A stretch of DNA of 64,000 nucleotides from positions 1,856 through 65,855 of the forward strand of contig JAUYDX010000088.1 of assembly GCA_030691625.1 (NCBI GenBank), written 5' to 3'. The notes beneath the pieces are model-generated. The model ran no database searches and was not told where the DNA came from. It saw only the letters and a program-made list of their open reading frames with translations. This stretch comes from Candidatus Omnitrophota bacterium. Its GTDB lineage: Bacteria; Omnitrophota; Gorgyraeia; Gorgyraeales; Gorgyraeaceae. This document shows positions 7,895 to 61,392 of the stretch, in pieces (within the stretch, counting starts at the first letter, position 1; each line of letters opens with the position of its first letter). The translations under genes were made by a program, and so were the position numbers.

Positions 7895-9055
7895 ATGGGC
7901 GAGTGGGTTGGAAGAGGCAGGAAGGCAAGGAGATGTTATGGGTTTGACGAGATCGCGCTTGTCCCCGGCAATGTTACGATAAATCCAAAAGAGACAGATA
8001 CGAGCTGGGAACTGGACGGAAAGAAATACAAGGTGCCTATTCTGGCAGCTGCCATGGACGGGGTAGTGGATGTGAAATTCGCGATAGAGATGTCCAGGCT
8101 CGGCGGGATAGCCGTCCTTAATTTAAACGGCGTGCAGACCAGGTATGAAGATCCTGATGAGGTGCTTGAGAAAATATCGCGCGCTAACCCGGAAGAAGCC
8201 ACAAAACTTGTGCAGTCGCTTTATCTGAAGCCTGTGCAGGAAAAACTTATCGCGAAAAGGATCAAGGAGATCAAATCCAAGAAAGGCGTGGCAGCTGTAA
8301 GTGCCATACCGCAGGACGCAGAAAAGTTCGGCAAGGTGGCTCAGGAGGCTGGCGCTGATATCTTTTTTATTCAATCAACTGTCATAAGCGTCAATCATGT
8401 CTCCAGCGAATATAAGATCGTGGACCTGGCGAAATTTATCAAATCAATGAAGATACCTGTGGTGCTGGGAAATTGCGTTACGTATTCCGTGGCGTTGGAA
8501 TTAATGGAGGCCGGGCCTGCGGCTATCCTGGTCGGGATAGGTCCTGGCGCGGCGTGCACCACTCGGGGCGTCTTAGGTATAGGCGTGCCTCAGGTAACAG
8601 CCACTTCGGATATAGCTGCGGCAAGGGATTTTTATTACAAGAAGACAGCGAAATACATACCTATTATAACAGACGGCGGCATGGATTCAGGCGGAGATAT
8701 ATGCAAGGCATTTGCCTGCGGCGCAGACGCGGTAATGGTGGGCTCTGCTTTCGCGAGGGCAAAGGAGGCGCCTGGCAAGGGATATCACTGGGGAATGGCA
8801 ACGCCACACGCCAACCTTCCCCGCGGCACCAGGATTCACGTTGGCACCACAGGGACACTGGAAGAGATCCTCCTGGGCCCTGCGAAGCTCGATGACGGCT
8901 CTCAGAATTTAGTAGGCGCTCTTATGACGTCAATGGGAAACCTCGGCGCTAGAAACATTAGAGAGATGCAGCTCACTGAAATTATCATAGCCCCATCCAT
9001 CAAGACCGAAGGCAAGATCATGCAAAGGGTCCAAAAGGTTGGCATGGGTAAATAA
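7895..9055 (+). CDS. IMP dehydrogenase/GMP reductase family protein (no CBS pair)
   Basis: TIM-barrel IMPDH motifs (GIGPGAACTTR catalytic Cys loop, GGMDSGGDICKAFACGADAVMVGS). Confidence 0.75.
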   Translation: MGEWVGRGRKARRCYGFDEIALVPGNVTINPKETDTSWELDGKKYKVPILAAAMDGVVDVKFAIEMSRLGGIAVLNLNGVQTRYEDPDEVLEKISRANPEEATKLVQSLYLKPVQEKLIAKRIKEIKSKKGVAAVSAIPQDAEKFGKVAQEAGADIFFIQSTVISVNHVSSEYKIVDLAKFIKSMKIPVVLGNCVTYSVALELMEAGPAAILVGIGPGAACTTRGVLGIGVPQVTATSDIAAARDFYYKKTAKYIPIITDGGMDSGGDICKAFACGADAVMVGSAFARAKEAPGKGYHWGMATPHANLPRGTRIHVGTTGTLEEILLGPAKLDDGSQNLVGALMTSMGNLGARNIREMQLTEIIIAPSIKTEGKIMQRVQKVGMGK

Positions 9056-9068
9056 AGTTAACCCGGAT

Positions 9069-9115
9069 TCAAACAACTTGACACTTGAAACAATGTCACA
9101 AGTGTCAAGTTGTTT
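9069..9115. repeat. family-1 palindrome copy E, between IMPDH-like stop and dnaE start
   Basis: inverted repeat. Confidence 0.9.
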
Positions 9116-9125
9116 GGTTGATTAT

Positions 9126-12100
9126 ATGCTTCATAGCGATTTCGTCCACCTGCACGTCCACACGCAATACAGCCTTCTTGACGGCGCCTGCATAATACCT
9201 AATCTCATTGACCTCGCGAGGCGCATGAAGATGCCTGCCTGCGCCATAACAGACCACGGCAACATGTTCGGCGCCATTGAATTCTACCAATCATGCATGA
9301 CGAATGGGATCAAGCCTATAATAGGGTCAGAGGTTTATATCGCCCCCAAAGGCAGGCTTGACAAGACCTTTTCCGCCGGAGAAGAAACAGCCAATCACCT
9401 GATACTGCTTGTCAAAGACGAGGCAGGATATAAAAATCTGATGAAGCTGGTCTCCATCGGTTATCTGGAAGGTTTTTATTATAAACCGAGGATCGATAAA
9501 GAGGTCCTGGCGCAGTATTCAAAAGGATTGATCGCGCTATCCAGCTGTTTAAAAGGCGAGATCCCCAGGTCTATAATGTCAGGGAAGGAAGAAAGGGCAA
9601 AACAGCTGGCAGATGAGTATTGCGCTATCATGGGCAAGGAAAATTTTTATTTTGAACTGCAGGATAACGGGATACCTGAGCAAAGGGAGGTCAGCAGGGA
9701 ACTTATAAGGCTTGGCAAAGAATTGGGCATAGGAGTAGTTGCCACTAACGACGTGCACTATCTTACCAGGGACAGCGCTAAGGCGCACGAGGCGCTTCTA
9801 TGCATACAGACGCAGACCACGCTGGATGACCCTAACCGCATGAAACTGCAGACAGACCAGTTTTATTTCAGGTCTGGCGAAGAAATGAAAGCGCTTTTTA
9901 AGGATACGCCGGACGCCATTTCCAACACAATAAAAATAGCGGAAAGGTGTAACCTGGAACTGGATTTCAAAAAGACATATCTTCCTCATTATGCCGCGCC
10001 TGAAGGCACCACGCGGGAAAAATTTATGAGAGAGCTCTGCGAAAATAATCTGGAGAAAAGATATCCCTTGTCTACCTGTCCAACTTCGCAAGTTGCCCCG
10101 ATGGGCAACTTGCGAAGTTGGACAGGTGGGGATATGAGACAAATAAAGGAAAGGCTGGATTATGAATTAAAGGTCATAAGCAAGGCAGGCTACACAAGTT
10201 ATTTCCTCATAGTGTGGGATTTTATAAGCCACGCGAAATCAAAAGGCATAGCTGTCGGGCCGGGAAGAGGTTCTGCGGCAGGGAGCATAGTGAGCTATCT
10301 CTTAGGCATAACAGACATAGACCCGCTCAGGTACAATCTCCTCTTTGAAAGATTTTTAAACTCTGAGCGCGTGAGCATGCCTGATATTGACATAGATTTC
10401 TGCTACGAAAGAAGGCCGGAGGTTATAGATTATGTCGTGCAGAAATACGGCAAGGACAATGTCGCGCAGATAATAACCTTCGGGACCATGGCAGCCAGGG
10501 CAGTAATAAGGGATGTGGGCAGGGTGATGAACCTTCCTTACGCTGATGTCGACAGGATAGCGAAGCTTGTGCCGATGGAACTGGACGTGACCCTGGAACT
10601 CGCGCTTGAAAAAGAACCGGAGCTCGCGAGATTATACAAAGAAGACCCAAGGGTGCGCGAACTTATAGATACCTCAAAAAAACTGGAAGGCCTTACGCGC
10701 CACGCGTCCACGCACGCGGCAGGGGTGGTCATAAGCGAGGATTCGCTCACCAACCACGTCCCAATATTTAAGACCAGCGATGGGCAAATTTCAACAGGCT
10801 ACGCCATGGGCTCTCTTGAAAAGATAGGGCTTTTTAAAAATGGATTTCCTGGGCTTGAGGACATTGACCGTTATTCAGGAGGCGATAAAGATAATCAACA
10901 GGGTCAATAATGTAGGGGCGGTCAATGACCGCCCCCTACGGGTTGAGGACATACCAATGGACGACCCTAAGACTTACAGGCTTTTGAATAACGCTGAATC
11001 AGAAGGCATATTCCAGCTGGAAAGTTCAGGGATGAGAGACCTTTTGAGGAAATTAAAGGCAGAGAAATTCGAGGACATAATAGCTCTTCTCGCGTTATAC
11101 AGGCCCGGCCCGATAGGAAGCGGCATGCTTGATGATTACATGAAGCGCAAGCACGGCAAGGTGGACGTGAGGTATGACCACCCGCTTCTTGAGGCGAGCC
11201 TGAAAGAGACATACGGCATCATTGTGTACCAGGAGCAGGTAATGACAATAGTCTCCTCGCTCGCTGGCTTTTCGCTGGCGCAGGCAGACCTTTTAAGAAG
11301 GGCTATCGGCAAAAAAACACCGGAGATAATGGAGCAGCAGAAAAAGGCCTTTATCGACGGCGCCGCGAAAAATAAAATAGACAGGCGTATTGCGGAAAAG
11401 ATATTTAACCTGATAGAGCATTTCGCCGGTTACGGCTTCAACAAAAGCCATTCAGCGGCGTACGCCATGATCTCTTACAGGACAGCGTACCTGAAGGCGA
11501 ACTTTCCCGTTGAGTTCATGACAGCCCTTCTCACCAGCGAAAAAGATAACACGGATAAGATAGTGGAATACATAGACGAGGCAGAGCGCATGGGTATAAA
11601 GATACTGCCTCCTGATATAAACGAGAGCTACGCGAATTTTACCATGATAAATAAAAATGAGATAAGATTTGGTTTGAGCGCTGTTAAAAATGTGGGCGAA
11701 GGCGCCATAGAATCCATAATCGAGGCCAGGAAAAAATACGGCCGTTTCTCGTCCCTGTACGAATTCTGCGAAAAGACAGATTCGAGGCTTGTGAATAAAA
11801 AGGTCATGGAGAGCCTTATAAAATGCGGGGCGTTTGACAGCGCGGGCCTTAAAAGATCCCAGCTGATGGCAATGCTGGCGGACACAATGAATGCCGCGGA
11901 TTCCGCGCACAAGGAATCCGCCACAGGCCAGATGACGCTTTTTACCAAGGACAGCCGCGAACCGCAGGCCCCGGATATAAAGGAGTGGCCTGAGAGCCAG
12001 CTTTTGAATTTTGAAAAAGATATGATAGGGTTTTATATAACAGGCCACCCTCTCGCCAAATACGAAAAGATGATCAAGGAATATTCCACAGCAGGCAGCG

Positions 12101-12633
12101 CCGGGCTGAGGAAGCTCGAGGACGGCCAGAAGGTCTGGTTCGGCGGCATAATAAACAAAATAAAAAACACGGTCACAAAGCGTTCCGGGGAAAAAATGGC
12201 TATCATGATGATGGAGGATATGGAAGGCAGCGTAGAAGCGCTTGTATTCCCAAACTCGTACAAAAACGTCTCCAGGAACATATTGCCTAATGCGGCAGTA
12301 TTTGTGAACGGCAGGCTCAGCCTTAAAGAGGAAAGGCCTAAGATAATCGTGGAGGAGATAATACCTATAACAGACGCCAGGAAAAAATTTACCCAGTCCA
12401 TTTCCATAAATCTCGCCAGCCAGGGCTCGGACGAGGAATTTTTCAACAGGCTCAGGAATGTCTTTTCAAGGTATCAGGGAGATACGCCTGTTTACATCAA
12501 TTTTTCCACTAAAGAAAACGGGTCTTTCCGCCAGGTCGTGGACAGGAAGCTTTTCGTGAGCCCCACCAATGAACTCGCCTCCGAGCTCGAGTCCCTGCTC
12601 GGCCGCGAACACATCCACTTCGAAAAATCCTAA
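9126..12633 (+). CDS. dnaE: DNA polymerase III alpha subunit DnaE, interrupted by a 1-nt frameshift in T5A5 run (10831-10840); contains two in-frame palindromic insertions
   Basis: PHP domain start MLHSDFVHLHVHTQYSLLDGA; two overlapping ORFs 9039-10910 and 10840-12633; removing one A restores ...GLFKMDFLGLRTL... Confidence 0.85.
10073..10127. repeat. family-2 palindrome, variant CCAACTTCGCAAGTTGCC, in frame inside dnaE
   Basis: 23-bp arms CCTGTCCAACTTCGCAAGTTGCC / GGCAACTTGCGAAGTTGGACAGG; adds ~18 aa STCPTSQVAPMGNLRSWTGG. Confidence 0.9.
10912..10939. repeat. GTAG-type REP-like hairpin GTAGGGGCGGTC-AAT-GACCGCCCCCTAC in frame inside dnaE
   Basis: 12/13-bp inverted repeat bounded by GTAG/CTAC; a related copy at 30949-30982. 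Confidence 0.8.
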
Positions 12634-13109: not shown

Positions 13110-14393
13110 ATGATTAAAGCATTGCGCGGCACAAAAGATATTCTGCCAGGCGAGTCGGATTTATGGCAATTTATAGAATCTACTGGCAGGGATATATTTA
13201 ATATATATGGGTATAATGAGATAAGGACGCCGATAATAGAGGAGGCGTCTTTGTTTATAAGGGGCATAGGAGACCTGACTGACATAGTGCAGAAAGAGAT
13301 GTATGTTTTTTCTGACAGGGGCAATAGGCGAGTTGCGCTGAGGCCTGAGGCCACAGCGTCTATTGTCCGCGCGTATATAGAAAATTCAATGTCCCAGTCA
13401 GGCGGGGCCGCAAAGCTATTTTACACAGGCCCGATGTTCAGGAGCGAGAGGCCTCAGCAGGGCAGGCAGAGGCAGTTCTATCAGATAGGCGTGGAGGCAA
13501 TAGGCTCGGACAGCCCGTTTCTTGACGCTGAGGTTATTGCGCTGGCTGTGAGATTTCTTGACAGGCTTGGCGTTAAAAATTATCACGTGAAATTGAACAG
13601 CCTGGGCTGTCAGAAGGATAAAATGGCCGCAATAGCAAAACATAAAGAGAACTTTAAGCCTCATTTTGAAAAATTATGCGACACCTGCAAGGCCAGGTTT
13701 GACAAAAATGTCTTGAGGATATTTGACTGCAAGGGCGATACGTGCAGGGTCATTGCTGAAAATGTAAAGGTGGAGGCAGCGCTCTGCAATGACTGCGAGT
13801 CGCATTTTAAAAAGGTGAAACAGTGCCTGGACGAACTGGGCGTTAAATACACTGTGGATCATAAAATAGTAAGGGGCCTGGATTATTATACAAAGACTGT
13901 ATTTGAGATAACCCAGGATGACCTGGGCGCGAAAGACGCCATATGCGCCGGAGGCAGATATAATAATCTGGTAAAGGAACTGGGCGGGAAAGATACGCCT
14001 GCTACCGGGTTTGCTTTTGGCGTGGAGCGCCTGGCGCTTGCGTTAAAAGCTGTCAGCTGTCAGCATTCAGCTGTCAGCCCTAAAGTTTTTGTTGCGGTTG
14101 CGGGAGAAGGGCTTTACCCTGAAGCGTTTAAATTGCTGGATTCTTTGCGCGGCGCCGGGATCGCAAGCGAAATGGATTATGACGAGAGAAGCTTAAAGAG
14201 CCAGATGAGAAAGGCAGAGAAGCTCGGGGCAGGGTTTGTGGTTATTTTAGGGGAAGATGAGTTTAAAAAAGGCAAAGCTGTATTAAAGGATATGAGTAGC
14301 GGAGACCAAAAAGAAATAATGCTGAATGAAATTATTTCGGCGCTCCATACCATAAAAACTTCGCAGGTTGCCGAAGGCAACCTGCGAAGTTGA
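13110..14393 (+). CDS. hisS: histidyl-tRNA synthetase; C-terminal 11 aa and stop supplied by a family-2 palindrome
   Basis: class II aaRS motifs, MIKALRGTKDILP start; ends TSQVAEGNLRS* inside REP. Confidence 0.9.
   Translation: MIKALRGTKDILPGESDLWQFIESTGRDIFNIYGYNEIRTPIIEEASLFIRGIGDLTDIVQKEMYVFSDRGNRRVALRPEATASIVRAYIENSMSQSGGAAKLFYTGPMFRSERPQQGRQRQFYQIGVEAIGSDSPFLDAEVIALAVRFLDRLGVKNYHVKLNSLGCQKDKMAAIAKHKENFKPHFEKLCDTCKARFDKNVLRIFDCKGDTCRVIAENVKVEAALCNDCESHFKKVKQCLDELGVKYTVDHKIVRGLDYYTKTVFEITQDDLGAKDAICAGGRYNNLVKELGGKDTPATGFAFGVERLALALKAVSCQHSAVSPKVFVAVAGEGLYPEAFKLLDSLRGAGIASEMDYDERSLKSQMRKAEKLGAGFVVILGEDEFKKGKAVLKDMSSGDQKEIMLNEIISALHTIKTSQVAEGNLRS
14048..14078 (+). repeat. short tandem repeat (GCTGTCAGC x3) inside hisS coding sequence
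   Basis: gctgtcagctgtcagcattcagctgtcagc encoding AVSCQHSAVS. Confidence 0.7.
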
Positions 14394-14398
14394 GGTGG
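14356..14398. repeat. family-2 palindrome forming hisS 3' end and aspS RBS
   Basis: AACTTCGCAGGTTGCC-GAA-GGCAACCTGCGAAGTT + GAGGTGG. Confidence 0.9.
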
Positions 14399-14402
14399 TT
14401 AA

Positions 14403-16482: not shown

Positions 16483-16508
16483 CAAAGCAGGGAACAGCCG
16501 CGATCGTA

Positions 16509-16571
16509 CCGCCTCAACCTCGCAGGTTACCTCGCAGGTTACCTCGCAGGTAACCTGCGAGGTTGAGGCGG
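16509..16571. repeat. family-2 palindrome with internal triplication (CCTCGCAGGTTA x3)
   Basis: CCGCCTCAACCTCGCAGGTTACCTCGCAGGTTACCTCGCAGGTAACCTGCGAGGTTGAGGCGG. Confidence 0.9.
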
Positions 16572-16605
16572 TTTGTTGTAAAGTTGTTGAGGGTGTAAAC
16601 CTTGG

Positions 16606-17553
16606 ATGGAAAGATTAATTGATATATCTAACAATGACGAGGCCAGGCAGCTTTTCGGGAGTTTTGACGAAAATCTGAAGACAGTGGAGTCTAATTTCGG
16701 GGTCAAGATAGTATCGCGCGGGGAGAAGCTGGCTATTAAAGGGGCCAAGAGGTCAGTAGACAATAGCGCGAGGCTTTTAGAGGAGATGCTTTTTGTAATA
16801 AGGAGGGGCGGCGCCATAAAAAGAGACGAGCTTTCATATTCCATAAGGTCTTTTAAAATAAATCCAGGCGTTGACCTGGAGGCCATATACCTGGACAGAA
16901 TAGAGGTGTCTTCCAGGCGGCAGTTTATAACCCCGAAAACACAAGGCCAGAAAAAATATATAGACGCTATAAGAGAGCACGATATCGTATTCGGCGTTGG
17001 GCCTGCCGGCACAGGCAAGACATACCTTGCCATGGCAATGGCTGTGAATGCCCTTAAAAGGCGCGAGGTATCAAGGATTATACTTACAAGGCCGGCTATT
17101 GAGGCAGGGGAAAGCCTGGGCTATCTGCCAGGCGATCTCTATCAAAAGGTAACCCCGTACTTGAGGCCGCTCTACGACGCCCTCTACGACATGATGGAGA
17201 TAAGCGAGATACAGGACTCTATTGAGCGCGGGGTCATAGAGGTGGCGCCTCTTGCCTACATGAGAGGCCGCACGCTTAATGATTCTTTCATTATCCTCGA
17301 CGAAGCCCAGAATTCCACAACAGAGCAGATGAAGATGTTTCTAACCAGGTTAGGTTTTGACTCCAAAACAGTCATTACCGGAGACAATACCCAAAGCGAC
17401 CTTCCTTCAGGCAGAGAGTCAGGCCTGACCCAGGTCCAGAAGATCCTGAGCCGCATAAAAGGCATAGCCTTCGCGTATTTCACAGGAGAAGACGTGGTGA
17501 GGCACAGCCTGGTGCAGGAAATAATAAAGGCATATGAGGAAAACTCTAAATAA
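16606..17553 (+). CDS. phoH: PhoH-like ATPase
   Basis: Walker A GPAGTGKT, PhoH family conserved blocks. Confidence 0.9.
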   Translation: MERLIDISNNDEARQLFGSFDENLKTVESNFGVKIVSRGEKLAIKGAKRSVDNSARLLEEMLFVIRRGGAIKRDELSYSIRSFKINPGVDLEAIYLDRIEVSSRRQFITPKTQGQKKYIDAIREHDIVFGVGPAGTGKTYLAMAMAVNALKRREVSRIILTRPAIEAGESLGYLPGDLYQKVTPYLRPLYDALYDMMEISEIQDSIERGVIEVAPLAYMRGRTLNDSFIILDEAQNSTTEQMKMFLTRLGFDSKTVITGDNTQSDLPSGRESGLTQVQKILSRIKGIAFAYFTGEDVVRHSLVQEIIKAYEENSK

Positions 17554-19726
17554 AAAACAGAAAAACCCGGGATTTTCCAGTAAGCTATCGCATGTCCTTA
17601 TAGCTGTAATCACGTGCCTGGTGCTGGTATTGATAGTGGAATGGGACACAAGCCTTTTCGACGCTGTATTTACCGAGGGCGACATAGTGCTGAAGTCCAC
17701 CTACGCGCCTTTTGATTTTAAGATAAAAGGCGAGATAGACTCTAATGCCACTGAATCCGCCAGAAAAAGCGCGATGGAAAAAGTCCCGCCTGTATACCTC
17801 ATTGACAGCTCTATCAAAGAAACAGTTTTAAGCAGGGTAAATTCTATTTCCGACGCAATAAACTCCCTTCATGTCCCTAAAGAGGGAGAGTCCCCTGAAG
17901 ACAGGCTCTCCAGGATCAAGGAAACTATGGCGCCTTTTGAAATACCAATGCCTTTAACGCATAACATGCTGGAACTTAAAGACCCAAAGGGGTTTTTTGA
18001 AGAAGCTGTAAAGACCGCGGAATATATCCTGGACACCGGCCTTATATCCAGCCAGGAGCTCGCCAGGCTGGATAAGGAATCTGTAAAGACAGTGACGCTG
18101 TTAGATAAGGCAAAAAACACGGAACAGGTTAAATTCACGAACGAGCTGTGGTTATTTTCTGACGCGAGAAAGAGGGCGGATAACCTGTTGGCCGCGTTGA
18201 AGGAAAAAAAGGAAAAGGCCCTGCTCATAGATCTTATAAGCGGCGTAATAACAACCCCGAATATAAAATATCAGGACTCTGAAACTGATTTTAGAAGGCA
18301 GGCCGCGGCTGCCAAGGTAAAACCTATATACACCACTCTGGAAGTAAAAAAGAACGAACTTATAATAAATAAAGGCGAGCGCATATCAAAAGAGGATATG
18401 CTGAAGCTGGAGGCTATTGCGCAGAAAGAGCCCTATCCCACAAAGGTCGTGGCGTTTTTCGGGATCGCGCTGATAATAATTTTATTCATGCTGATCCTCG
18501 TATTTTATATAGAATTTTATGAACCTGACCTGATAGTGGGCAATAAAGAACTTGTACTTCTCGCGTCAATATGCGTCCTGGTGATTTTAGCGGCAAAGCT
18601 GATCGTGCTATCCCCTTACCCGAGTAACTTTATACCCATAGCAGCGGCGTCCATGCTTATCGCGCTTCTCTTGAATAGCAGGCTCGCGATAATCACGACG
18701 TGTTTCTTGGGCATACTGGCAGGCATGGTTTCCGGCGGGAGAATGGATATAGCGGCAATGTCCATAATAGGAGGCATGATAGGGATATTTGCGGTGAGGA
18801 ATGTTAGAAGGAGATCCCAGCTTATATCAGCCGGATTTTTAGTGGGACTGGCCAATATGACTTATTTCATAGCCATAGGGCTTATAAATTCCCTGGATTT
18901 CCACACCTATATGACAGAGGCGTCCATAGGAATGGCTAACGGCATGGTGTCCGCGATAATAGTGACAGGCGTTTTGCCTATTTTTGAAAGTATGTTCAAA
19001 AGTATTACTGATATAAGCCTTCTTGAGACAGCGGATTTGAACCACCCAATCCTTAAAGAGATGGTTATAAAGGCGCCCGGAACATATCACCACAGTCTTG
19101 TGGTGGGGAACCTGGCTGAGGCCGCGTGCGAGACAATAGGCGCCAATGCGCTCCTCGCGCGGGTGAGCTCGTATTTTCACGATATAGGAAAGATAGAAAA
19201 GGCGGAATATTTCAGCGAAAACCAGGCAGGCGAATCCCCGCACGATAAACTCTCTCCCACAATGAGCAGCCTGATAATAACAAACCACGTGAAAAACGGA
19301 GTGGAACTCGCAGAGAAATACGGCTTAAACACCAGGATCGTGGCTATAATAAAGCAGCACCACGGCACAGGGCTTGTTTTTTATTTTTTCAAAAGGGCGC
19401 TGGAGAAGACCGTGGAAGATCAGGAGGTTTTTGAAGAGGGCTTCAGGTATCCTGGCCCAAAGCCGCAGACAAAAGAGGCCGCGTGCGTGCTTCTGGCTGA
19501 CTCGGTAGAGGCCGCGTCCAGGACTCTTGACGACCCTACGACATCCAGCATACAGGGCCTCGTGAAAAAGATCATAAATAATAAATTCATAGACGGCCAG
19601 CTGGACGAGTGCGAATTAACGCTGAAGGACCTGGAAAAGATAGCGGATGTATTCACGCACATCTTGACCGGCATATACCACAACCGCGTGGAATATCCGG
19701 AAGACACCGGCAAGAAGAAGGCATGA
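17534..19726 (+). CDS. 7TM receptor with intracellular HD hydrolase (PgpH/YqfF family)
   Basis: N-terminal extracellular domain, 7 TM helices, C-terminal HD domain (HHSLVVGNLAE...HDIGK); phoH-pgpH-ybeY synteny. Confidence 0.85.
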   Translation: MRKTLNKKQKNPGFSSKLSHVLIAVITCLVLVLIVEWDTSLFDAVFTEGDIVLKSTYAPFDFKIKGEIDSNATESARKSAMEKVPPVYLIDSSIKETVLSRVNSISDAINSLHVPKEGESPEDRLSRIKETMAPFEIPMPLTHNMLELKDPKGFFEEAVKTAEYILDTGLISSQELARLDKESVKTVTLLDKAKNTEQVKFTNELWLFSDARKRADNLLAALKEKKEKALLIDLISGVITTPNIKYQDSETDFRRQAAAAKVKPIYTTLEVKKNELIINKGERISKEDMLKLEAIAQKEPYPTKVVAFFGIALIIILFMLILVFYIEFYEPDLIVGNKELVLLASICVLVILAAKLIVLSPYPSNFIPIAAASMLIALLLNSRLAIITTCFLGILAGMVSGGRMDIAAMSIIGGMIGIFAVRNVRRRSQLISAGFLVGLANMTYFIAIGLINSLDFHTYMTEASIGMANGMVSAIIVTGVLPIFESMFKSITDISLLETADLNHPILKEMVIKAPGTYHHSLVVGNLAEAACETIGANALLARVSSYFHDIGKIEKAEYFSENQAGESPHDKLSPTMSSLIITNHVKNGVELAEKYGLNTRIVAIIKQHHGTGLVFYFFKRALEKTVEDQEVFEEGFRYPGPKPQTKEAACVLLADSVEAASRTLDDPTTSSIQGLVKKIINNKFIDGQLDECELTLKDLEKIADVFTHILTGIYHNRVEYPEDTGKKKA

Positions 19727-20172
19727 AGATAGATATACAGAATCTGCAAAGTATAATCAAGCTTGATAAGGCTAAGATAACAGAGCGCGCAGGCGCGGTG
19801 TTAAGCGCCATGTCAGAACCTGACGCGGAATTGAGCCTGGTTTTCGTGAACGACATGTATATCAGGAATCTGAACTGGAAGTACAGGAGGATAGATTCCG
19901 CCACAGACGTGCTGGCGTTTCCCATGCGGGACTCGAGAGGGCTTTCAGGCTCCATACTGGGAGACGTGGTGATATCCGTGGAGACTGCGAGGCGCGAGGC
20001 AAAAAAACGAAAAAAGGATTTTCAGGAAGAGCTGGATTTATATCTGGCGCACGGCATATTGCATCTTTTAGGCTACGACGACGAAAAGCCAAGAGCAAGA
20101 AAGAAGATGAGAGAGAAGGAGAAAGAGCTCCTCCGTCTATTCCAAAGTTCTCGACTTAGTATTCATATATAG
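19723..20172 (+). CDS. ybeY: endoribonuclease YbeY; last ~10 codons and stop lie inside a family-4 MITE
   Basis: HGILHLLGYDD metal-binding motif; overlaps upstream stop (ATGA). Confidence 0.88.
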   Translation: MKIDIQNLQSIIKLDKAKITERAGAVLSAMSEPDAELSLVFVNDMYIRNLNWKYRRIDSATDVLAFPMRDSRGLSGSILGDVVISVETARREAKKRKKDFQEELDLYLAHGILHLLGYDDEKPRARKKMREKEKELLRLFQSSRLSIHI

Positions 20173-20245
20173 CCACAATGTCCGCTCGAACACTAATATT
20201 CTTCGAGCGGTCACGAAAGCTGGATGTGAGAGCAAAGTCGAGAAA
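20146..20245. mobile_element. family-4 MITE overlapping ybeY 3' end
   Basis: GTTCTCGACT...GTCCGCTCGAACACTAATATTCTTCGAGCGGTCACGAAAGC...AGTCGAGAAA. Confidence 0.8.
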
Positions 20246-20254
20246 ATATATGAG

Positions 20255-20962
20255 GTGGATGTGCAGCAGCAGAGTTTAGTCGAAAGTTTTAACGCGGCCA
20301 TAGAAGGCTTTGTGTATGTGTTTAAGAGCCAGCGCAACATGAGGCTCCATTTTTTAATGGGCCTTTTCGCGCTGCTTTTAGGCGTGCTCCTGAATTTCAC
20401 ATACGTAGAGCTAATGATATTGTGCCTCACTATAGCGTTTGTGCTTTTCGCGGAGATGTTCAATACAGCCATAGAGTATACAGTGAACCTGGTGAGCCAG
20501 GAATACAATCCTCTCGCCAGGATAGTGAAGGATATAGGCGCCGGAGCTGTTTTATTGAGCTCAATGGCAGCAATAGTGGTAGGGTATATCTTATTTGCCT
20601 CCAGGGCAGGAATAAGGATAGAAGACAATATCGCGAAAATAAGGGATTCCAGCTGGCACATAACGTTTATAGTGCTTATCCTGATCCTGGCTATAGTGGT
20701 TTTAAGCAAGATATTTTTGCAGAGAGGCACTCCTCTTAGAGGCGGTATGCCCAGCGGCCACAGCGCCGTGGCGTTTTCCATATGGGCTATTATCTCGCTT
20801 TTATATCCCAGCGGGCTCGTGATCTTCCTGGTGTTTCTCCTGGCCATGCTGGTGGCCAGAAGCAGGGTAAGTTCGCAGGTGCACAGCTTTATGGAGGTTT
20901 TTATAGGCGCTGTTCTTGGGATCCTGACAACAGTGGCCATATTCCAATTTTTGAGGAGATGA
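20255..20962 (+). CDS. diacylglycerol kinase (DgkA) fused to PAP2-like phosphatase domain
   Basis: N-terminal DgkA-like 3-TM region (EGFVYVFKSQRNMRLH...), C-terminal PSGHS...SRVSSQVHS PAP2 motifs. Confidence 0.7.
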   Translation: MDVQQQSLVESFNAAIEGFVYVFKSQRNMRLHFLMGLFALLLGVLLNFTYVELMILCLTIAFVLFAEMFNTAIEYTVNLVSQEYNPLARIVKDIGAGAVLLSSMAAIVVGYILFASRAGIRIEDNIAKIRDSSWHITFIVLILILAIVVLSKIFLQRGTPLRGGMPSGHSAVAFSIWAIISLLYPSGLVIFLVFLLAMLVARSRVSSQVHSFMEVFIGAVLGILTTVAIFQFLRR

Positions 20963-21641: not shown

Positions 21642-22221
21642 CCTCATCCTTACTTTTTTTACAAAAGATTTCGGGAAGATAGACGGCATCATAAAAGGCG
21701 CCAGGGGCGCCAGGCCCAGGGGCGACGCTAACCCGATATTTTTCAGCCTGGACCAGATAGTTTTTTACGAAAAAAAATTTGGAGGCATCTCCATAATCTC
21801 GCAATGCGAGACAGAGGAGGTGTTCCTCAATATATTGAAGGAGTGGGCCAGGGCGTCGTCAGCTTATTACATGCTGGAACTGGCAGACGTATTCACCGAG
21901 CCTGAAGGCAGGTCAGAAGAGGTTTTCGAGGCGCTTTACAGCGGCTTTAAATCCCTAGACAGCGGGAAGGATGCCTCAGGTATAACCAGGCTTTTTGAGA
22001 TAAAATTACTCATGGCGCTTGGTTTCTGGCCTGGCGCGGAATATTTCAAGCTGACCAAAGGCGCGATGTCCAGCGTCATGCATCTTGAAAAAGAACCCTG
22101 GAAAACAGCCTCTAATATAAAACTGGCAAAAGAGGTAAATGGCGAGATCAGGGCTGTTACGGCTAAACTTATCGAAGAAAATCTTGACAGGCCGCTAAAA
22201 ACCGTCAGATTTTTAACTTAA
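21583..22221 (+). CDS. recO: DNA repair protein RecO
   Basis: MAIQKTEAILLKKKDFRETSLIL N-terminal OB fold typical of RecO. Confidence 0.75.
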   Translation: MAIQKTEAILLKKKDFRETSLILTFFTKDFGKIDGIIKGARGARPRGDANPIFFSLDQIVFYEKKFGGISIISQCETEEVFLNILKEWARASSAYYMLELADVFTEPEGRSEEVFEALYSGFKSLDSGKDASGITRLFEIKLLMALGFWPGAEYFKLTKGAMSSVMHLEKEPWKTASNIKLAKEVNGEIRAVTAKLIEENLDRPLKTVRFLT

Positions 22222-22262
22222 ACCTCGTAGGTTGCCGTAGGCAACCTACGAGGTTGTGGTGG
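22222..22262. repeat. family-2 palindrome between recO stop and glyQ start
   Basis: ACCTCGTAGGTTGCC-GTAG-GCAACCTACGAGGTT + GTGGTGG. Confidence 0.9.
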
Positions 22263-22267
22263 TTTCT

Positions 22268-29424: not shown

Positions 29425-29526
29425 AGTTCTCGACTAGGCTTGCATTTTAAGATTACTGCGTCCGCTCGAACAATAATATTCTTCGAGCGGCCCCGGGAGC
29501 GGGATACGTAAGCAGAGTCGAGAACT
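29425..29526. mobile_element. family-4 MITE between apt and tRNA-Arg
   Basis: GTTCTCGACT...CGCTCGAACAATAATATTCTTCGAGCGG...AGTCGAGAAC. Confidence 0.8.
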
Positions 29527-29548: not shown

Positions 29549-29625
29549 TGTCCCAGTAGCTCAGATGGATAGAGCACAGGTTTCCTAAACCTGGGGTCGG
29601 GCGTTCGAATCGCCCCTGGGACGCC
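29549..29625 (+). tRNA. tRNA-Arg (anticodon CCT)
   Basis: manual fold: acceptor GTCCCAG/CTGGGAC, D-arm GCTC..GAGC, anticodon stem CAGGT/ACCTG with loop TTCCTAA, T-arm GGGCG-TTCGAAT-CGCCC, discriminator G, encoded CCA. Confidence 0.88.
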
Positions 29626-29670
29626 AAACAACCTTACACTTGTGACATTGTTATAAGTGTCAAGTTGTTT
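29625..29670. repeat. family-1 palindrome copy I, abutting the CCA end of tRNA-Arg
   Basis: inverted repeat starting at the final A of the tRNA CCA. Confidence 0.9.
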
Positions 29671-34121: not shown

Positions 34122-34250
34122 TTACGACAAAGGCAAACCATTCGAAAGAATGGGGCGCAAAGTCAACAGGCCTAAAGCCCTGAAGGGCAACGGCGGCTGG
34201 ATTACCGAAATTAAAAACCTATTCTGCCATGAGGCCGGATAGGTTTTTTA
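34122..34250 (+). ncRNA. c-di-GMP-I (GEMM) riboswitch candidate with intrinsic terminator, in leader of RlpA-like gene
   Basis: GGCAAACC-AUUCGAAAGAAUGG-GGCGCAAAG-..GGCCUAAAG..GGAUUACCGAAAU closely matches the Vibrio Vc2 GEMM aptamer as recalled from memory (GGGCAAACCAUUCGAAAGAGUGGGACGCAAAGCC..GGCCUAAAC..GGUUACCGAUGG); followed by AACCUAU..AUAGGUUUUUU terminator 15 nt before the RBS. Confidence 0.6.
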
Positions 34251-42802: not shown

Positions 42803-43708
42803 ATGGAGAACCCTGATAATAAAAATATGATAGGCCTGGCGCTTGGGTCAGGCGCCGCTTTCGGGCTCGCGCACATAGGCGTATTGCGCGTTCTTGAGAG
42901 GGAAAAGATTCCAGTAGGGGTTGTTTCAGGCGCGAGCATAGGCGCCCTTATCGCGGCAATGTGGTGCATTGGCCTGAGTTCAAATGACATAGAAGCGATT
43001 TCCGCGAAACTGAAAAGAAAGCTCAATATCATGAGGCTCCTGGATTTTACATTTCCGATATCCGGGATACTGGCAGGCAGGCGGCTCAAGAGATTTTTAA
43101 GGGCTATCCTGGGGGACAGGACATTCGAAGACCTGAAGATCCCCGTCAAAATAATAGTTTACGACCTGGCAAGCAGGGAGACAATAGTAGCGGACAAAGG
43201 CAGGATCCTGGACGCTGTATATAAAAGCATAGCTGTTCCGGGTATTTTTCAGCCAATAATGGAAGACGGAAGGATGTACGTGGACGGAGGAATCCTGGAT
43301 CCCGTGCCTGTGGATATACTTTTCAGGAGCGGCGCGAAAAAGGTCATAGCGGTCAATGTCCTGCCCGGGCCGAAGAATATACGCGAAAGAAATGTGGCCC
43401 TAAAAGAGATTGCCAAAGAAGAGGAAAACATGCTTAGGCACGGCTCATTGGGAGAAAAGATGTGCGCCTATATCTCCAGGTTTTTCAGAAAGGTTTTTAC
43501 GCCCAATATATTCGACGTCATAATGACCAGTATGCAGGCAATGGAATACTCTATAGCCGAGGTAAATTGCTGCAGGGCTGACGTGAACCTGCACCCTGTT
43601 TTAAGCGACGCCAGCTCGATAGATTTTCATCTTGTGAAGAGTTTTGTGAAAATAGGCGAGGAAGAGGCCCTGAGGCACATAGACAAGATAAGAGCTCTAA
43701 CAACTTGA
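42803..43708 (+). CDS. patatin-like phospholipase; last 3 codons and stop lie inside a family-1 palindrome
   Basis: GxGxxG oxyanion hole (GSGAAFG), GASIG nucleophile elbow, DGG catalytic Asp motif. Confidence 0.85.
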   Translation: MENPDNKNMIGLALGSGAAFGLAHIGVLRVLEREKIPVGVVSGASIGALIAAMWCIGLSSNDIEAISAKLKRKLNIMRLLDFTFPISGILAGRRLKRFLRAILGDRTFEDLKIPVKIIVYDLASRETIVADKGRILDAVYKSIAVPGIFQPIMEDGRMYVDGGILDPVPVDILFRSGAKKVIAVNVLPGPKNIRERNVALKEIAKEEENMLRHGSLGEKMCAYISRFFRKVFTPNIFDVIMTSMQAMEYSIAEVNCCRADVNLHPVLSDASSIDFHLVKSFVKIGEEEALRHIDKIRALTT

Positions 43709-43743
43709 CACTTGTGACATTGTCACAAGTGTCAAGTTGTTGG
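43698..43743. repeat. family-1 palindrome copy L, perfect palindrome, contains patatin stop codon
   Basis: TAACAACTTGACACTTGTGACATTGTCACAAGTGTCAAGTTGTTGG. Confidence 0.9.
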
Positions 43744-48886: not shown

Positions 48887-48946
48887 TAAAAAATTAAAAT
48901 TTTTGAAAGAAACCCCTCATCTAAATGTGTCTTATATGGTAAATAA

Positions 48947-48988
48947 ACCACCTCAACCTGCGAGGTAACCTGCGAGGTTGAAGTGGTT
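48947..48988. repeat. family-2 palindrome immediately 5' of RAYT gene
   Basis: AACCACCTCAACCTGCGAGGTAACCTGCGAGGTTGAAGTGGTT. Confidence 0.9.
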
Positions 48989-49008
48989 AAATCAAAGAGG
49001 AGGTGGAT

Positions 49009-49638
49009 ATGTTTGTTACAGGCGAAATTTATCATGTTTATAGTAAGAGTATAGCTGATTTTAAGATATTCAATAATGATTTTGAATACCAGAGAATTAA
49101 TAAAGCAATGCAATATTATCAAGTTTCTAAACGGCCTGGAAGTTTTTCTAACTTTTTGGAATACGGGAAACAGCTTTCAGCGGGTAATACCAATAATAAA
49201 CTGGTGCAAATTATTTCTTATTGTCCGATGCCGACTCATTTGCATTTTACCTTAAAGCAATTAATAGAAAAAGGGATATCAACATTTATGAGCAATGTCC
49301 TCAATAGCTATACCCGTTATTTTAATATCAAGCATAACCGTAAAGGTCCGCTATGGGAAGGGCGGTTCAAGAAAGTATTGGTGAAAAGCGATGAACAGCT
49401 AATTCATCTGACTCGCTATATCCATTTAAATCCTGTTACAGCAGGTTTGGTTAATAATCCGATAGATTGGCCATGGTCTTCTTATCATGAGTTTATTAAT
49501 AAAGATTTAACAGAAGACAGCATTTGTGAATACAAAAATATATTAGACATAAAACCTGATAGTTATAAAGCATTCACAGAAGATAGAGCTTCTTATCAAA
49601 GAGAATTGGCAAAAATAAAGCATATACTGATCGATTAG
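49009..49638 (+). CDS. REP-associated tyrosine transposase (RAYT; IS200/IS605 TnpA-like HUH enzyme)
   Basis: HUH motif HLHFTL, catalytic Tyr region RYIHLNPV, ~200 aa; flanked on both sides by inverted family-2 palindromes. Confidence 0.8.
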   Translation: MFVTGEIYHVYSKSIADFKIFNNDFEYQRINKAMQYYQVSKRPGSFSNFLEYGKQLSAGNTNNKLVQIISYCPMPTHLHFTLKQLIEKGISTFMSNVLNSYTRYFNIKHNRKGPLWEGRFKKVLVKSDEQLIHLTRYIHLNPVTAGLVNNPIDWPWSSYHEFINKDLTEDSICEYKNILDIKPDSYKAFTEDRASYQRELAKIKHILID

Positions 49639-49680
49639 ACCACCTTAACCTACGAGGTAACCTGCGAGGTTGAGATGGTT
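49639..49680. repeat. family-2 palindrome immediately 3' of RAYT gene
   Basis: GACCACCTTAACCTACGAGGTAACCTGCGAGGTTGAGATGGTT. Confidence 0.9.
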
Positions 49681-51411
49681 ATCAGGGTGTGGTATAATAG
49701 ACGCATGGCAGTTAAAAATATATTTTTAATTATCATTATAATTATCGCGGCAGCCGCGCCTTATATAAACTCCATGCACAATCCTTTCATCTGGGACGAG
49801 GAGGAGATTATAGTAAAAAATCCCGTGATAAAAGATTGGAGCTACCTGCCGCATGTTTTTAAGACAAACATTTTCGGGACAGCAATAACCCCGTCCGGTT
49901 ACTACAGGCCCATGTATACGCTGTCATTCATGGCAGATTACAATATCTGGGGCCTTAATACCTTCGGATACCACCTCTTTAATATCCTATTCCATGTTTT
50001 AAACGCTATTTTGCTGTATTTACTTCTCATGAAGCTTGGGCTGGACAGGAAAATCGCATGCTTTAGCAGTGTATTATTCGCTGTGTATCCGATAAACTGC
50101 GAAGCTGTTACGCTTATAGCCGCAAGAGTGGAGCTCATAGCGGGTTTTCTGCTTTTATCGTGCATGATATGTTTTATCAATGGCGTAAAAGGCCGGGGGC
50201 TTAATTTTCTATTGTCCATTATTTTCTTTGCGCTGGCCATGTTGACAAAAGAAAGCGTTATGGTATTCCCGTTTATACTACTGGCTTACACCCTGATATT
50301 CGTAGAGAAAAAGCCCGGGTCAAAGGCTATTTTACCTTTAATGGTTTTGATATTAATGGCCGCGTTTTACGGTATTGCCAGGTTCCTGCTTCTGGGCCAC
50401 TCGCCGGTCACAACCTTATCCCTTATAAACAGCGCCAGTTTTATTGAAAAGGTTTTTACGTTGCCGGGGATATTATTTACATATGTGTCGCTTATATTGT
50501 TTCCTGTCAGGCTGATAAGCGAATACGATTTTGTGCTGCGAAGTTTCTGGGATCCGCGCGTCTGGCTGGCAGCGTTTTTATTAATAGCCATGTTTTCAGC
50601 CGCGTATCTGCGGCTTAAGCCAAAAAAATATCCGCTATTTTTCATATCCTGGTTTTTAATAAGCCTGGCGCCTTACTTTAATATAATAATCCCCCTGCAT
50701 GCCACTCTTATGGAGCATTGGGCGTATTTTTCCACAATGGGTTTCGCTGCCCTGTCAGGGATAGCTGTTTTTAATATGGCTGAATCCGCGTCTTCCAGGT
50801 GGCTGAAAGGGCTTCTGATCCTGATGGCCGCGTCCCTTATCGGATTTTATATCGCGAAGATAACAGAGCGCAACATGGAATGGAGCGATCCTTTCAGGTT
50901 ATACCAGGCAGATGTTAAAAAAGAGCCGAATAGTTTTTTACTGCATTGCAATCTGGGCGTGGAGTATTTCAGGAGAGGGATGACGGAAGAGGCTGAAAAA
51001 GAATTCCTGGAATGCAATAATGTAAGCCCCGGCGGTAAATATGACACAGCCTGCAATAACCTGGGAGTGATATACGCGAGAAAAGGCAGGACAGAAGAGG
51101 CAATAGCTTTATACAAGGAGAGCATAGACATCAATAACTATCCCCTGGCTTATGAAAATTTAGGCGGGCTTTATAATGCCATGGGTAAACATAGAGACGC
51201 TGTATTAATTCTTGAAAAAGGCGCTGAGCTGTACCCATTAAACATTAATATCCTGTACCAGTTAGGGATCGCTTATTACATGAACAAGGAATTTGGCCCG
51301 GCTAAACAGATGTTTCTGAGGGTGGAGGGGATCCAGAAAAATTATTCAGACACAGCCAAATTCCTCAATCTCCTAAACAACTTGACACTTCAAACATTGT
51401 CACAAGTGTAA
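49675..51411 (+). CDS. polytopic membrane protein with C-terminal TPR repeats, paralog of 46174-47778; C-terminus and stop inside a family-1 palindrome
   Basis: same architecture and alignable N-terminus (..WDEEEII / FQFDDVKRIVG..) as the paralog. Confidence 0.6.
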   Translation: MVIRVWYNRRMAVKNIFLIIIIIIAAAAPYINSMHNPFIWDEEEIIVKNPVIKDWSYLPHVFKTNIFGTAITPSGYYRPMYTLSFMADYNIWGLNTFGYHLFNILFHVLNAILLYLLLMKLGLDRKIACFSSVLFAVYPINCEAVTLIAARVELIAGFLLLSCMICFINGVKGRGLNFLLSIIFFALAMLTKESVMVFPFILLAYTLIFVEKKPGSKAILPLMVLILMAAFYGIARFLLLGHSPVTTLSLINSASFIEKVFTLPGILFTYVSLILFPVRLISEYDFVLRSFWDPRVWLAAFLLIAMFSAAYLRLKPKKYPLFFISWFLISLAPYFNIIIPLHATLMEHWAYFSTMGFAALSGIAVFNMAESASSRWLKGLLILMAASLIGFYIAKITERNMEWSDPFRLYQADVKKEPNSFLLHCNLGVEYFRRGMTEEAEKEFLECNNVSPGGKYDTACNNLGVIYARKGRTEEAIALYKESIDINNYPLAYENLGGLYNAMGKHRDAVLILEKGAELYPLNINILYQLGIAYYMNKEFGPAKQMFLRVEGIQKNYSDTAKFLNLLNNLTLQTLSQV

Positions 51412-51420
51412 AGTTGTTAG
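51373..51420. repeat. family-1 palindrome copy N, supplies C-terminus and stop of TPR-membrane gene
   Basis: inverted repeat; host ORF ends ..NLTLQTLSQV* inside it. Confidence 0.9.
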
Positions 51421-61293: not shown

Positions 61294-61392
61294 GGTTCTC
61301 GACTTTGCTGCCGTAATAAGCTTTCGTGACCGCTCGAACAATATTGTTCGAGCGGACGTTGTGGCTATGCATGTAAGCTTAGTCGAGAACCC
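61293..61392. mobile_element. family-4 MITE between polA and coaE, perfect 12-bp TIRs GGGTTCTCGACT/AGTCGAGAACCC
   Basis: TIRs and internal CGCTCGAACAATATTGTTCGAGCG palindrome. Confidence 0.85.

What the first reader, a model, noticed from the sequence alone, without database searches (positions are those of the whole stretch)
20146..20245. Mobile palindromes donate C-termini and stop codons to host genes (ybeY, hisS, patatin, TPR-membrane protein, ORF-track N-termini of coaE/rpmE/groEL)
ybeY ends ..FQSSRLSIHI* inside a family-4 MITE. hisS ends TSQVAEGNLRS* inside a family-2 REP (14356-14398). Patatin ends ..ALTT* with its TGA in the family-1 TTGACA (43698-43743). The TPR gene ends ..NLTLQTLSQV* in a family-1 copy (51373-51420).

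These insertions have remodelled 3' ends of conserved genes, and annotation pipelines will mis-extend 5' ends through the same elements.
Basis: seen in the sequence. Interest (0 to 1): 0.55.

Follow-up and report, generated by a model that had tools for sequence, protein, structure and literature searches.

The report
Palindromic repeats rewriting gene ends
In this compact Omnitrophota genome, small mobile palindromic repeats sit right against stop codons and in a few genes (ybeY, hisS, a TPR glycosyltransferase, and inside dnaE) encode short extra peptides, which is real but has already been described for such repeats in other bacteria.

Summary
The window is a Candidatus Omnitrophota MAG contig carrying about 39 copies of four palindromic repeat families, and the four named genes do end inside copies.

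Comparison with syntenic relatives that lack these copies supports the interpretation for three of the four genes.
- **ybeY:** the last 8 codons and the stop are coded by a ~100-nt MITE. The ancestral end (TGC AGC AGC AGA GTT TAG) survives downstream of the MITE.
- **hisS:** 13 extra residues and a TGA come from a REP.
- **TPR-PMT gene:** 11 residues and a TAA come from a family-1 palindrome.
- **Patatin:** not supported. Relatives without F1 there end RALTT* or RALTA*, so only the stop codon lies in the repeat arm.

The predicted 5' mis-extension mostly did not happen. NCBI's proteins for hisS, rpmE and groEL use the short starts; only coaE starts inside a MITE.

- A family-2 palindrome sits in frame inside dnaE and adds 20 residues.
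- A RAYT-like transposase gene is flanked by family-2 copies.
- Repeats lie a median of 2 nt from the upstream stop and 23 nt from the next start.

REPs that supply stop codons and sit inside dnaE and tRNA-synthetase genes were reported in 2013 (PMC3733652). This is a new member of a known kind, of modest interest.

The parts
20147..20245 (+). F4 MITE-like element inserted in the 3' end of ybeY. It codes the last 8 residues (SSRLSIHI) and the TAG at 20170-20172.
   Evidence: 10-nt terminal inverted repeat and nested hairpin, -43 kcal/mol, z -7.5. Absent from the ybeY-dgkA junction of L002, L003, L004 and L005.
19723..20172 (+). ybeY, 149 aa. The Pfam YbeY match ends at residue 138.
20250..20279 (+). 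Relic of the ancestral ybeY 3' end (ATG AGG TGG ATG TGC AGC AGC AGA GTT TAG = MRWMCSSRV*). It now overlaps the dgkA start (GTG at 20261 or 20255).
   Evidence: Aligns with the orthologs' ..ATG GAA AAT TTA TGC AGC AGC AGA GCT TAG.
14352..14399 (+). F2 REP copy coding the hisS tail (I)KTSQVAEGNLRS and its TGA. Its 3' end GAGGTGG lies 9 nt before the ortholog-aligned aspS ATG (14406).
13110..14393 (+). hisS, 427 aa as annotated by NCBI. It is 13 aa longer at the C-terminus than its syntenic orthologs.
51376..51418 (+). F1 copy coding the last 11 residues (NNLTLQTLSQV) and the TAA of the TPR/PMT gene.
43699..43741 (+). F1 copy containing the patatin TGA. The protein residues are unchanged relative to orthologs.
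10074..10127 (+). F2b palindrome in frame inside dnaE. Net 60-nt, 20-residue insertion (STCPTSQVAPMGNLRSWTGG) between the PHP and NTPase domains.
   Evidence: Absent from L002 and L004 dnaE. 28-bp hairpin, -54.5 kcal/mol.
49009..49638 (+). RAYT-like Y1 transposase gene. Its TAG overlaps the first bases of the downstream F2 copy.
   Evidence: Pfam Y1_Tnp E 3.9e-6. NCBIfam REP_Tyr_transpos 62 bits, below the 80-bit cut-off. Best PDB hit 4ER8 TnpArep, with HUH (HLH) and YIHLNPV aligned.
48944..48989 (+). F2 copy upstream of the RAYT gene.
49636..49681 (+). F2 copy downstream of the RAYT gene.
22218..22265 (+). F2 copy containing the recO TAA (4-nt overlap). Its GTGGTGG lies 6 nt before the glyQ ATG.
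61295..61390 (+). F4 copy 1 nt after the polA stop. NCBI's coaE start (61367) lies inside it.

Best explanation
The window comes from a streamlined Omnitrophota genome in which neighbouring genes abut or overlap. Several families of non-autonomous palindromic elements have spread into the gene junctions. F2 is a REP family with a RAYT-like gene on the same contig. F4 is a ~100-nt MITE-like element. F1, F1b and F3 are REP-like palindromes with no mobilising gene in the window.

Insertions survive only where they do little harm. That is immediately 3' of a stop codon, upstream of the next gene's ribosome-binding site.

Where the ancestral junction left no room, the element landed in the last codons of the upstream gene. 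This is the case for hisS-aspS (4-nt spacer) and ybeY-dgkA (19-nt overlap). The gene now reads into the element until it meets a stop codon there. The result is a short repeat-coded tail appended after the conserved domain (hisS +13 aa, TPR-PMT 11 aa) or replacing a few non-essential residues (ybeY: 8 aa in place of about 11). An F2 subtype that is open in all frames has also been tolerated in frame inside dnaE.

Shown: the repeats, the stops inside them, their absence at the orthologous sites, the ancestral ybeY end downstream of the MITE, and the stop-proximal placement.

Inferred: the mobilising enzymes, the selection filter, and that the tails are translated and harmless.
For: - Repeat families and copy numbers.
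- Syntenic relatives lack the copies at ybeY-dgkA, hisS-aspS (L004) and inside dnaE, and have 4-nt or overlapping junctions there.
- The ancestral ybeY end is retained after the MITE.
- Tails start after the Pfam domain ends (YbeY to residue 138 of 149; HGTP_anticodon to 420 of 435).
- The hisS TGA is part of the F2 consensus GTTGAGG. The F2b subtype has TGG there, and that is the codon read through in dnaE.
- In 27 single-element spacers the median stop-to-element distance is 2 nt and the median element-to-start distance is 23 nt. 24 elements are closer to the stop and 2 closer to the start (sign test p = 1e-5). 9 contain the stop and none contains a supported start.
- The RAYT-like gene is flanked by F2 copies.
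- F4 relatives occur at other loci in other Omnitrophota (L002, L009, L011). Among 20 complete copies from metagenomes, 5 share their first G with the stop codon of a long open frame and 2 receive a long open frame that ends 21 nt inside.
- F1, F2 and F3 are absent from all comparator loci.
- The same behaviour of GTAG REPs is published: PMC3733652.
Against: - No target-site duplication or parent IS was found for F4.
- No mobilising gene for F1, F3 or F4 is in the window.
- The RAYT score is below NCBIfam's cut-off.
- For hisS and TPR-PMT, insertion into the coding end cannot be told apart from insertion just after the stop followed by loss of the stop.
- Only one ortholog, at 57% identity, is available for TPR-PMT.
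- Relatives carry other palindromes at several of the same spacers. Some sites may therefore hold old elements that changed sequence rather than new insertions.
- Translation of the tails is untested.
- dnaE carries a frameshift downstream of its insertion, so its functional state is unclear.
Confidence: 0.8

Rival explanations
1. Stop-codon loss rather than insertion into the gene. The elements inserted just downstream of intact stop codons, and the stops later mutated, so translation runs on into a pre-existing element.
For: Most copies start 0-16 nt after a stop, so one point mutation would produce such a tail. For hisS an in-frame TAA lies two codons after the repeat's TGA. No ancestral stop is visible upstream of the element in hisS or TPR-PMT.
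Against: Excluded for ybeY, where the ancestral stop is downstream of the MITE. In L004 the hisS-aspS spacer is only 4 nt, which leaves almost no room for an insertion that spares the stop. The native parts of hisS and TPR-PMT are no longer than the orthologs' full lengths.
Confidence: 0.12
2. The palindromes are not mobile insertions. They are conserved intercistronic hairpins (terminators or mRNA stabilisers) inherited in place and homogenised within each genome, so the overlaps with gene ends are old features.
For: Relatives have unrelated or F1-like palindromes at the same spacers: dnaE-hup, glyQ-glyS and recO-glyQ in L004; hisS-aspS in L002; the patatin 3' end in L006, L008, L009 and L011. 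All copies form strong hairpins.
Against: ybeY-dgkA, hisS-aspS (L004), the dnaE site and several F3 sites are empty in relatives. Near-identical copies are scattered over 64 kb. A RAYT-like gene is flanked by F2 copies. F4 occurs at non-orthologous loci in other genomes.
Confidence: 0.05
3. Assembly or gene-calling artefact. Repeat-induced misjoins in a MAG create false gene/repeat junctions, or the tails are not part of the real genes.
For: The source is a metagenome-assembled contig. dnaE carries a 1-nt T-run frameshift that could be an error. The Logan contig L001 breaks inside the MITE.
Against: The elements (43-100 nt) are shorter than typical reads. L001 reproduces the ybeY/MITE junction exactly. 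Synteny with relatives is unbroken on both sides of every element examined. NCBI's annotation contains the same C-termini.
Confidence: 0.03

Closest known systems
GTAG-tagged REPs and REPtrons (REP + RAYT): Nunvar et al. 2010, PMC2817692; Di Nocera et al. 2013, PMC3733652
   Same: - F2 is a 40-50-nt palindrome with a G(T/C)AG..CT(A/G)C core and many copies.
- It lies mostly downstream of co-directional genes.
- A Y1/HUH transposase-like gene is flanked by copies.
- Di Nocera et al. already report REP termini providing stop codons, about 10% of intragenic REPs at the 3' ends of coding regions, and REPs inside dnaE, dnaE2 and tRNA-synthetase genes.
   Different: - The phylum is Omnitrophota; the library search found no paper on dispersed palindromic repeats in this phylum.
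- The RAYT scores below the NCBIfam cut-off.
- The F2 3' end carries GAGGTGG at Shine-Dalgarno distance from four downstream starts.
Rickettsia palindromic elements (RPEs), inserted in frame in protein-coding genes (reviewed in PMC10969869)
   Same: A palindromic repeat inserted in frame in an essential gene (dnaE), adding a peptide absent from orthologs. The same repeat-coded peptide (TSQVA..GNLRS) appears in two unrelated proteins.
   Different: RPEs are about 100-150 bp and frequently intragenic. Here there is one fully internal case among about 39 copies, and the element is a 54-nt REP-type hairpin.
Bacterial MITEs such as Correia/NEMIS, ERIC and RUP, which make in-frame fusions with host ORFs (PMC10969869)
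   Same: F4 is about 100 nt with 10-nt terminal inverted repeats and no coding capacity. It shows presence/absence at orthologous sites and fuses its sequence to a host ORF's 3' end.
   Different: No target-site duplication and no parent IS identified. The nested inner hairpin is conserved.
E. coli REPs within about 15 nt of stop codons that lower upstream-gene expression through ribosome stalling and tmRNA (Liang, Rudd and Deutscher, Mol Cell 2015; cited from my own knowledge, not found in the library)
   Same: 25 of 27 single-spacer elements start no more than 16 nt after a stop codon, or contain it.
   Different: No functional data here. Whether the mechanism operates in Omnitrophota is unknown.

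Membership tests
REP/RAYT system (REPtron), for F2 | Short imperfect palindrome present in many dispersed copies | tested here: met
   10 copies in 64 kb. Hairpins of -36 to -54 kcal/mol.
REP/RAYT system (REPtron), for F2 | GTAG (or a close variant) tag at the palindrome terminus | tested here: met
   Core G(T/C)AGGTTGCC..GGCAACCT(A/G)C. GTAG in the copies at 22218 and 45063, GCAG in others.
REP/RAYT system (REPtron), for F2 | A RAYT gene flanked by copies of the same REP | tested here: met
   ORF 49009-49638 lies between the F2 copies at 48944-48989 and 49636-49681.
REP/RAYT system (REPtron), for F2 | The RAYT protein has the HUH motif and catalytic Tyr and matches the family model | tested here: inconclusive
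   HLH and YIHLNPV align with E. coli TnpArep 4ER8 (E 3.4e-6). NCBIfam REP_Tyr_transpos gives 62 bits, below the 80-bit cut-off.
REP/RAYT system (REPtron), for F2 | The RAYT cleaves and mobilises its REP | not testable with these tools
   Needs biochemistry.
MITE, for F4 | Terminal inverted repeats, 50-500 nt long, no coding capacity | tested here: met
   GTTCTCGACT/AGTCGAGAAC, 78-124 nt.
MITE, for F4 | Target-site duplication | tested here: inconclusive
   No consistent direct repeat flanks the six copies.
MITE, for F4 | Presence/absence polymorphism at orthologous sites and copies at non-orthologous sites | tested here: met
   Empty ybeY-dgkA site in four loci. Copies elsewhere in L002, L009 and L011 and in 20 metagenome contigs.
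MITE, for F4 | A parent IS or transposase with matching terminal inverted repeats | not tested
   None in the window. The rest of the genome was not available.
RPE-like in-frame palindromic insertion, for F2b in dnaE | The insert keeps the reading frame and is absent from orthologs | tested here: met
   Net 60 nt, 20 aa, absent from L002 and L004.
RPE-like in-frame palindromic insertion, for F2b in dnaE | The host protein remains functional | not testable with these tools
   A +1 T frameshift 700 nt downstream splits dnaE in this assembly.
REP-like elements, for F1, F1b and F3 | A cognate RAYT or other mobilising enzyme | not tested
   None in the window. F1, F1b and F3 cores were not found in any of the comparator loci searched (L001-L016).

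The most novel reading that the evidence does not exclude
The F2 REPs, and perhaps the other families, may act as ready-made gene-junction cassettes. One insertion would bring a stop codon for the upstream gene (TGA in GTTGAGG), a strong hairpin, and a Shine-Dalgarno sequence (GAGGTGG, 6-9 nt before the ATG of aspS, glyQ, a hexapeptide transferase and the gene starting at 63571) for the downstream gene. That would let them split abutting or overlapping, translationally coupled genes in a streamlined genome without killing either. Hairpins placed at stop codons could then tune termination, trans-translation or mRNA stability across the genome.
Probability: 0.2. Interest if true: 0.55.

Novelty: new member of a known kind. 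Interest (0 to 1): 0.3.

Why it matters
The window gives a clear, ortholog-controlled example, in a poorly studied uncultured phylum, of how selfish palindromic repeats change protein ends when a compact genome leaves them no intergenic room. The practical value lies in annotation and comparative work on MAGs. Repeat-coded tails and the dnaE insert should not be read as lineage-specific protein features, and a few starts (coaE, possibly TPR-PMT) are probably called inside repeats. It does not open a new question, because the same behaviour is documented for REPs, RPEs and MITEs elsewhere.

Tried and rejected
- **Shared 'SSR' in ybeY.** I rejected this because the codons differ (AGT TCT CGA against AGC AGC AGA) and the ancestral codons are still present after the MITE.
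- **In-silico excision of the MITE.** Removing 98 nt restores the frame to ..FQKYMRWMCSSRV*, which resembles the 152-aa ortholog P0011. Removing 99 nt does not, and the exact element boundary is uncertain, so I do not use this as proof.
- **L004 as an element-free comparator.** My first repeat scan missed its own palindromes with 11-nt arms at three spacers. It is empty only at the ybeY, hisS, dnaE and F3 sites.
- **Target-site duplication for F4.** None found.
- **Metagenome pattern scan for F4.** It returned 120 or more loci, but only 20 carry a complete element. I expect, without having calculated it, that many of the rest are chance matches to a 19-base gapped pattern.
- **Exact look-up of the window's ybeY.** It gave only a 1-kb Logan contig.
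- **Rfam.** No family matches any palindrome.
- **Literature.** Nothing found on dispersed palindromic repeats (REPs/MITEs) in Omnitrophota. The Liang 2015 REP-translation paper is not in the library.
- **Small overlaps.** Overlaps of 1-5 nt at 1395, 1816, 22221, 23113 and 49638 are treated as ambiguous because the repeat boundaries are not defined to the base.

Full report
**Source and layout.** The window is part of a 72.8-kb contig of a Candidatus Omnitrophota MAG. The ybeY product is 100% identical to an NCBI protein from that contig. NCBI accessions MDP2921891-MDP2921941 match other genes here. Almost every gene is on the + strand and the spacers are very short.

**The repeats.** Four families of palindromic repeats are present.
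- F1 is a 43-nt palindrome, AACAACTTGACACTTGTGACA-N-TGTCACAAGTGTCAAGTTGTT, with 14 copies. The F1b variant adds 4.
- F2 has the core G(T/C)AGGTTGCC..GGCAACCT(A/G)C with outer arms AAACCACCTCAAC/GTTGAGGTGGTTT, and 10 copies including the F2b subtype.
- F3 is built on TGGTGCCAGGCAC, with 5 copies.
- F4 is about 100 nt, with the terminal inverted repeat GTTCTCGACT/AGTCGAGAAC and the inner hairpin CCGCTCGAA..TTCGAGCGG, and 6 copies.

All fold into hairpins far more stable than shuffled controls, z -4 to -12. None matches an Rfam family.

**Checking the observation.** The four gene ends are exactly as described, and Pfam confirms the gene identities. An independent Logan assembly (L001) is identical over window 19196-20209, which includes the ybeY/MITE junction.

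**ybeY.**
- Two syntenic loci were recovered: L002 (GCA_030649895.1) and L004 (JGI 3300028903, an 833-kb contig). In both, ybeY is 145 aa, ends ..ELMENLCSSRA* or ..LCGSKI*, overlaps dgkA by 19 nt, and has no MITE.
- Most of the 120 closest ybeY homologs (59-100% identical to the window's protein) also end ..LCSSR[VA]*.
- In the window the F4 element follows codon 141. Translation runs 8 codons into it (AGT TCT CGA CTT AGT ATT CAT ATA) to a TAG.
- The old end, TGC AGC AGC AGA GTT TAG, is still present at 20262-20279, downstream of the MITE. It now serves only as the first codons of dgkA.
- The 'SSR' shared with orthologs is a coincidence, because the codons differ.
- This is direct evidence for insertion inside the coding end. 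It also uncoupled ybeY from dgkA.

**hisS.**
- The window protein is 13 residues longer than both orthologs..NEIISALHTIKTSQVAEGNLRS* against ..DSVITELRR* and ..EDIVKNII*.
- The extra codons are the F2 copy, and the TGA is part of the F2 consensus GTTGAGG.
- L004 has only 4 nt between hisS and aspS. L002 has an unrelated palindrome there.

**TPR/PMT gene.** The only ortholog, L008 at 57% identity, ends ..FLDMITDKH*. The window's last 11 codons are F1 sequence. The promoter-like TTGACC-N17-GATATAAT shared with L008 is retained after the element.

**Patatin.** L008, which has no F1 at this site (an unrelated palindrome lies further downstream), ends RALTT* (ACA ACA TAG). L012, with no palindrome there, ends RALTA*. 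The window ends RALTT* (ACA ACT TGA). No residue has changed. The left end of F1 (AACAAC) coincides with native sequence, and only the stop codon lies in the repeat.

**5' ends.**
- The mechanical ORFs run into repeats upstream of hisS, glyQ, glyS, ppdK, the sigma factor, groEL, rpmE and coaE.
- Exact look-ups show that NCBI annotated the short, ortholog-supported forms of hisS (427 aa), rpmE (68 aa) and groEL (546 aa).
- Only coaE (193 aa) starts inside an F4 copy. The Pfam CoaE match begins 14 residues later.
- The TPR-PMT start at 49675 lies in an F2 copy and may also be too long.

**Additional findings.**
1. *An in-frame repeat in dnaE.* An F2b palindrome (10074-10127) lies in frame inside dnaE, between the PHP and NTPase domains. 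It adds STCPTSQVAPMGNLRSWTGG, which is absent from L002 and L004. It is read in the same frame as the hisS tail. F2b has TGG where F2 has TGA.
2. *A RAYT-like gene.* ORF 49009-49638 matches Pfam Y1_Tnp and NCBIfam REP-associated tyrosine transposase (62 bits, below the cut-off). Its best PDB match is E. coli TnpArep 4ER8, with the HUH and Tyr motifs aligned. It is flanked by F2 copies. None of the comparator loci has this gene.
3. *Placement next to stop codons.*
   - In 27 spacers that hold one element, the median distance from the upstream stop is 2 nt and from the next supported start 23 nt.
   - 24 elements are closer to the stop and 2 closer to the start (p = 1e-5).
   - 9 elements contain the stop, 4 of them by 10 nt or more. 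None contains a supported start.
   - One F1 copy starts directly after the 3' end of tRNA-Arg(CCT).
4. *A Shine-Dalgarno-like end on F2.* The F2 3' end GAGGTGG (GTGGTGG in one copy) lies 6-9 nt before the start of four downstream genes.
5. *Distribution in other genomes.*
   - F4 relatives occur at other loci in other Omnitrophota.
   - A metagenome scan gave 20 complete copies. Five share their first G with the stop codon of a long open frame. Two receive a long open frame that ends 21 nt inside.
   - F1, F2 and F3 were not seen in any comparator locus.
   - Those genomes carry their own palindromes at several of the same spacers.

**Mechanism.** Non-autonomous palindromic elements spread through a genome with almost no intergenic space. 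Copies persist where they do least harm, which is just after a stop and before the next ribosome-binding site. Where genes abut or overlap, the copy lands in the last codons, and the gene ends at the first stop inside the repeat. The Pfam domains end before the tails, so these are short appended or replaced tails, not remodelled domains.
- Shown: the repeats, the junctions, the empty orthologous sites and the ancestral ybeY relic.
- Inferred: which enzymes move F1, F3 and F4, that selection rather than targeting explains the placement, and that the tails are translated and tolerated.

**Comparison with what is known.** Di Nocera et al. 2013 (PMC3733652) report that GTAG REP termini often provide stop codons. 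They also report that some REPs lie at the ends of coding regions or inside ORFs, and that the targets include dnaE, dnaE2 and tRNA-synthetase genes. In-frame fusions by MITEs and Rickettsia palindromic elements are reviewed in PMC10969869. I found no paper on dispersed palindromic repeats in Omnitrophota.

**Verdict.** The phenomenon is a new member of a known kind.

Noticed in passing
window 10828-10845: dnaE is split into two ORFs (9039-10910 and 10840-12633) by one extra T in a T-run: GGGCTTTTTAAAAATGG here, GGGCTTTTAAAAATGG in L002. NCBI's accession numbering leaves no slot for dnaE between guaB and hup, so it was probably called a pseudogene. This is either an assembly error or a real frameshift.
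   Followed up: partly
window ~10915-10935: dnaE has six extra residues (AVNDRP) relative to L002 and L004, just downstream of the frameshift. Origin not examined.
   Followed up: no
window 14390-14396, 22255-22261, 45100-45106, 63557-63563: The 3' end of F2 (GAGGTGG or GTGGTGG) lies 6-9 nt upstream of the ortholog-supported ATG of aspS, glyQ, a hexapeptide transferase and the gene starting at 63571. The repeat may therefore supply a Shine-Dalgarno sequence. The left outer arm (CCACCTC) is its complement.
   Followed up: partly
window 29550-29669: tRNA-Arg(CCT) at 29550-29626 is flanked by an F4 copy (29426-29525) upstream and by an F1 copy that starts at the base after its 3' CCA (29627).
   Followed up: partly
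window 34122-34209 (+) and 52954-53089 (-): Two c-di-GMP-I class riboswitch aptamers (Rfam RF01051 at 81.8 bits; RF03167 at 59.9 bits). The second is on the minus strand in a region where almost all genes are on the plus strand.
   Followed up: no
window 16606-17553: A PhoH-like gene lies between the LysM gene and the 7TM-HD gene. It is absent from that position in the otherwise syntenic L002 and L004. An F2 copy (16508-16574) precedes it.
   Followed up: no
window 35891-37244: Five tandem 261/276-nt coding repeats with the motif ..DKLTY.WDFGDG.. inside the 857-aa gene at 34836-37409. This looks like a repeated extracellular domain.
   Followed up: no
L004 ~4235-4275, ~12390-12440, ~13300-13345: L004 has its own palindrome family ((T)AAGTTTACA..TGTAAACTTA(C/T), 11-nt arms) at the dnaE-hup, recO-glyQ and glyQ-glyS spacers. 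These are the same spacers that hold F1 or F2 in the window. Its architecture resembles F1, and the glyQ stop lies in its arm. Either these spacers are recurrent hot spots or the elements are old and diverged in place.
   Followed up: partly
L006 ~4465-4510, L011 ~4510-4555, L009 ~6652-6680: At the patatin 3' end, other Omnitrophota carry different palindromes that include the stop codon: AAATAAGGTTACA.. in L006 and L011, and TAGGGACAGGACA.. in L009.
   Followed up: partly
homologs P0031, P0051, P0052, P0016, P0018: Several ybeY orthologs end in ..VIARS(K/E)ATKQ... This looks like a tail coded by another repeat family, which would suggest the ybeY 3' end has been hit repeatedly in this clade. 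Their DNA was not examined.
   Followed up: no
window 20252-20263: After the MITE, the dgkA start region reads GAGGTGGATGTG, where orthologs have GGAAAATTTATG. There is a stronger Shine-Dalgarno-like sequence and GTG in place of ATG. This may be compensation for the lost translational coupling with ybeY.
   Followed up: no
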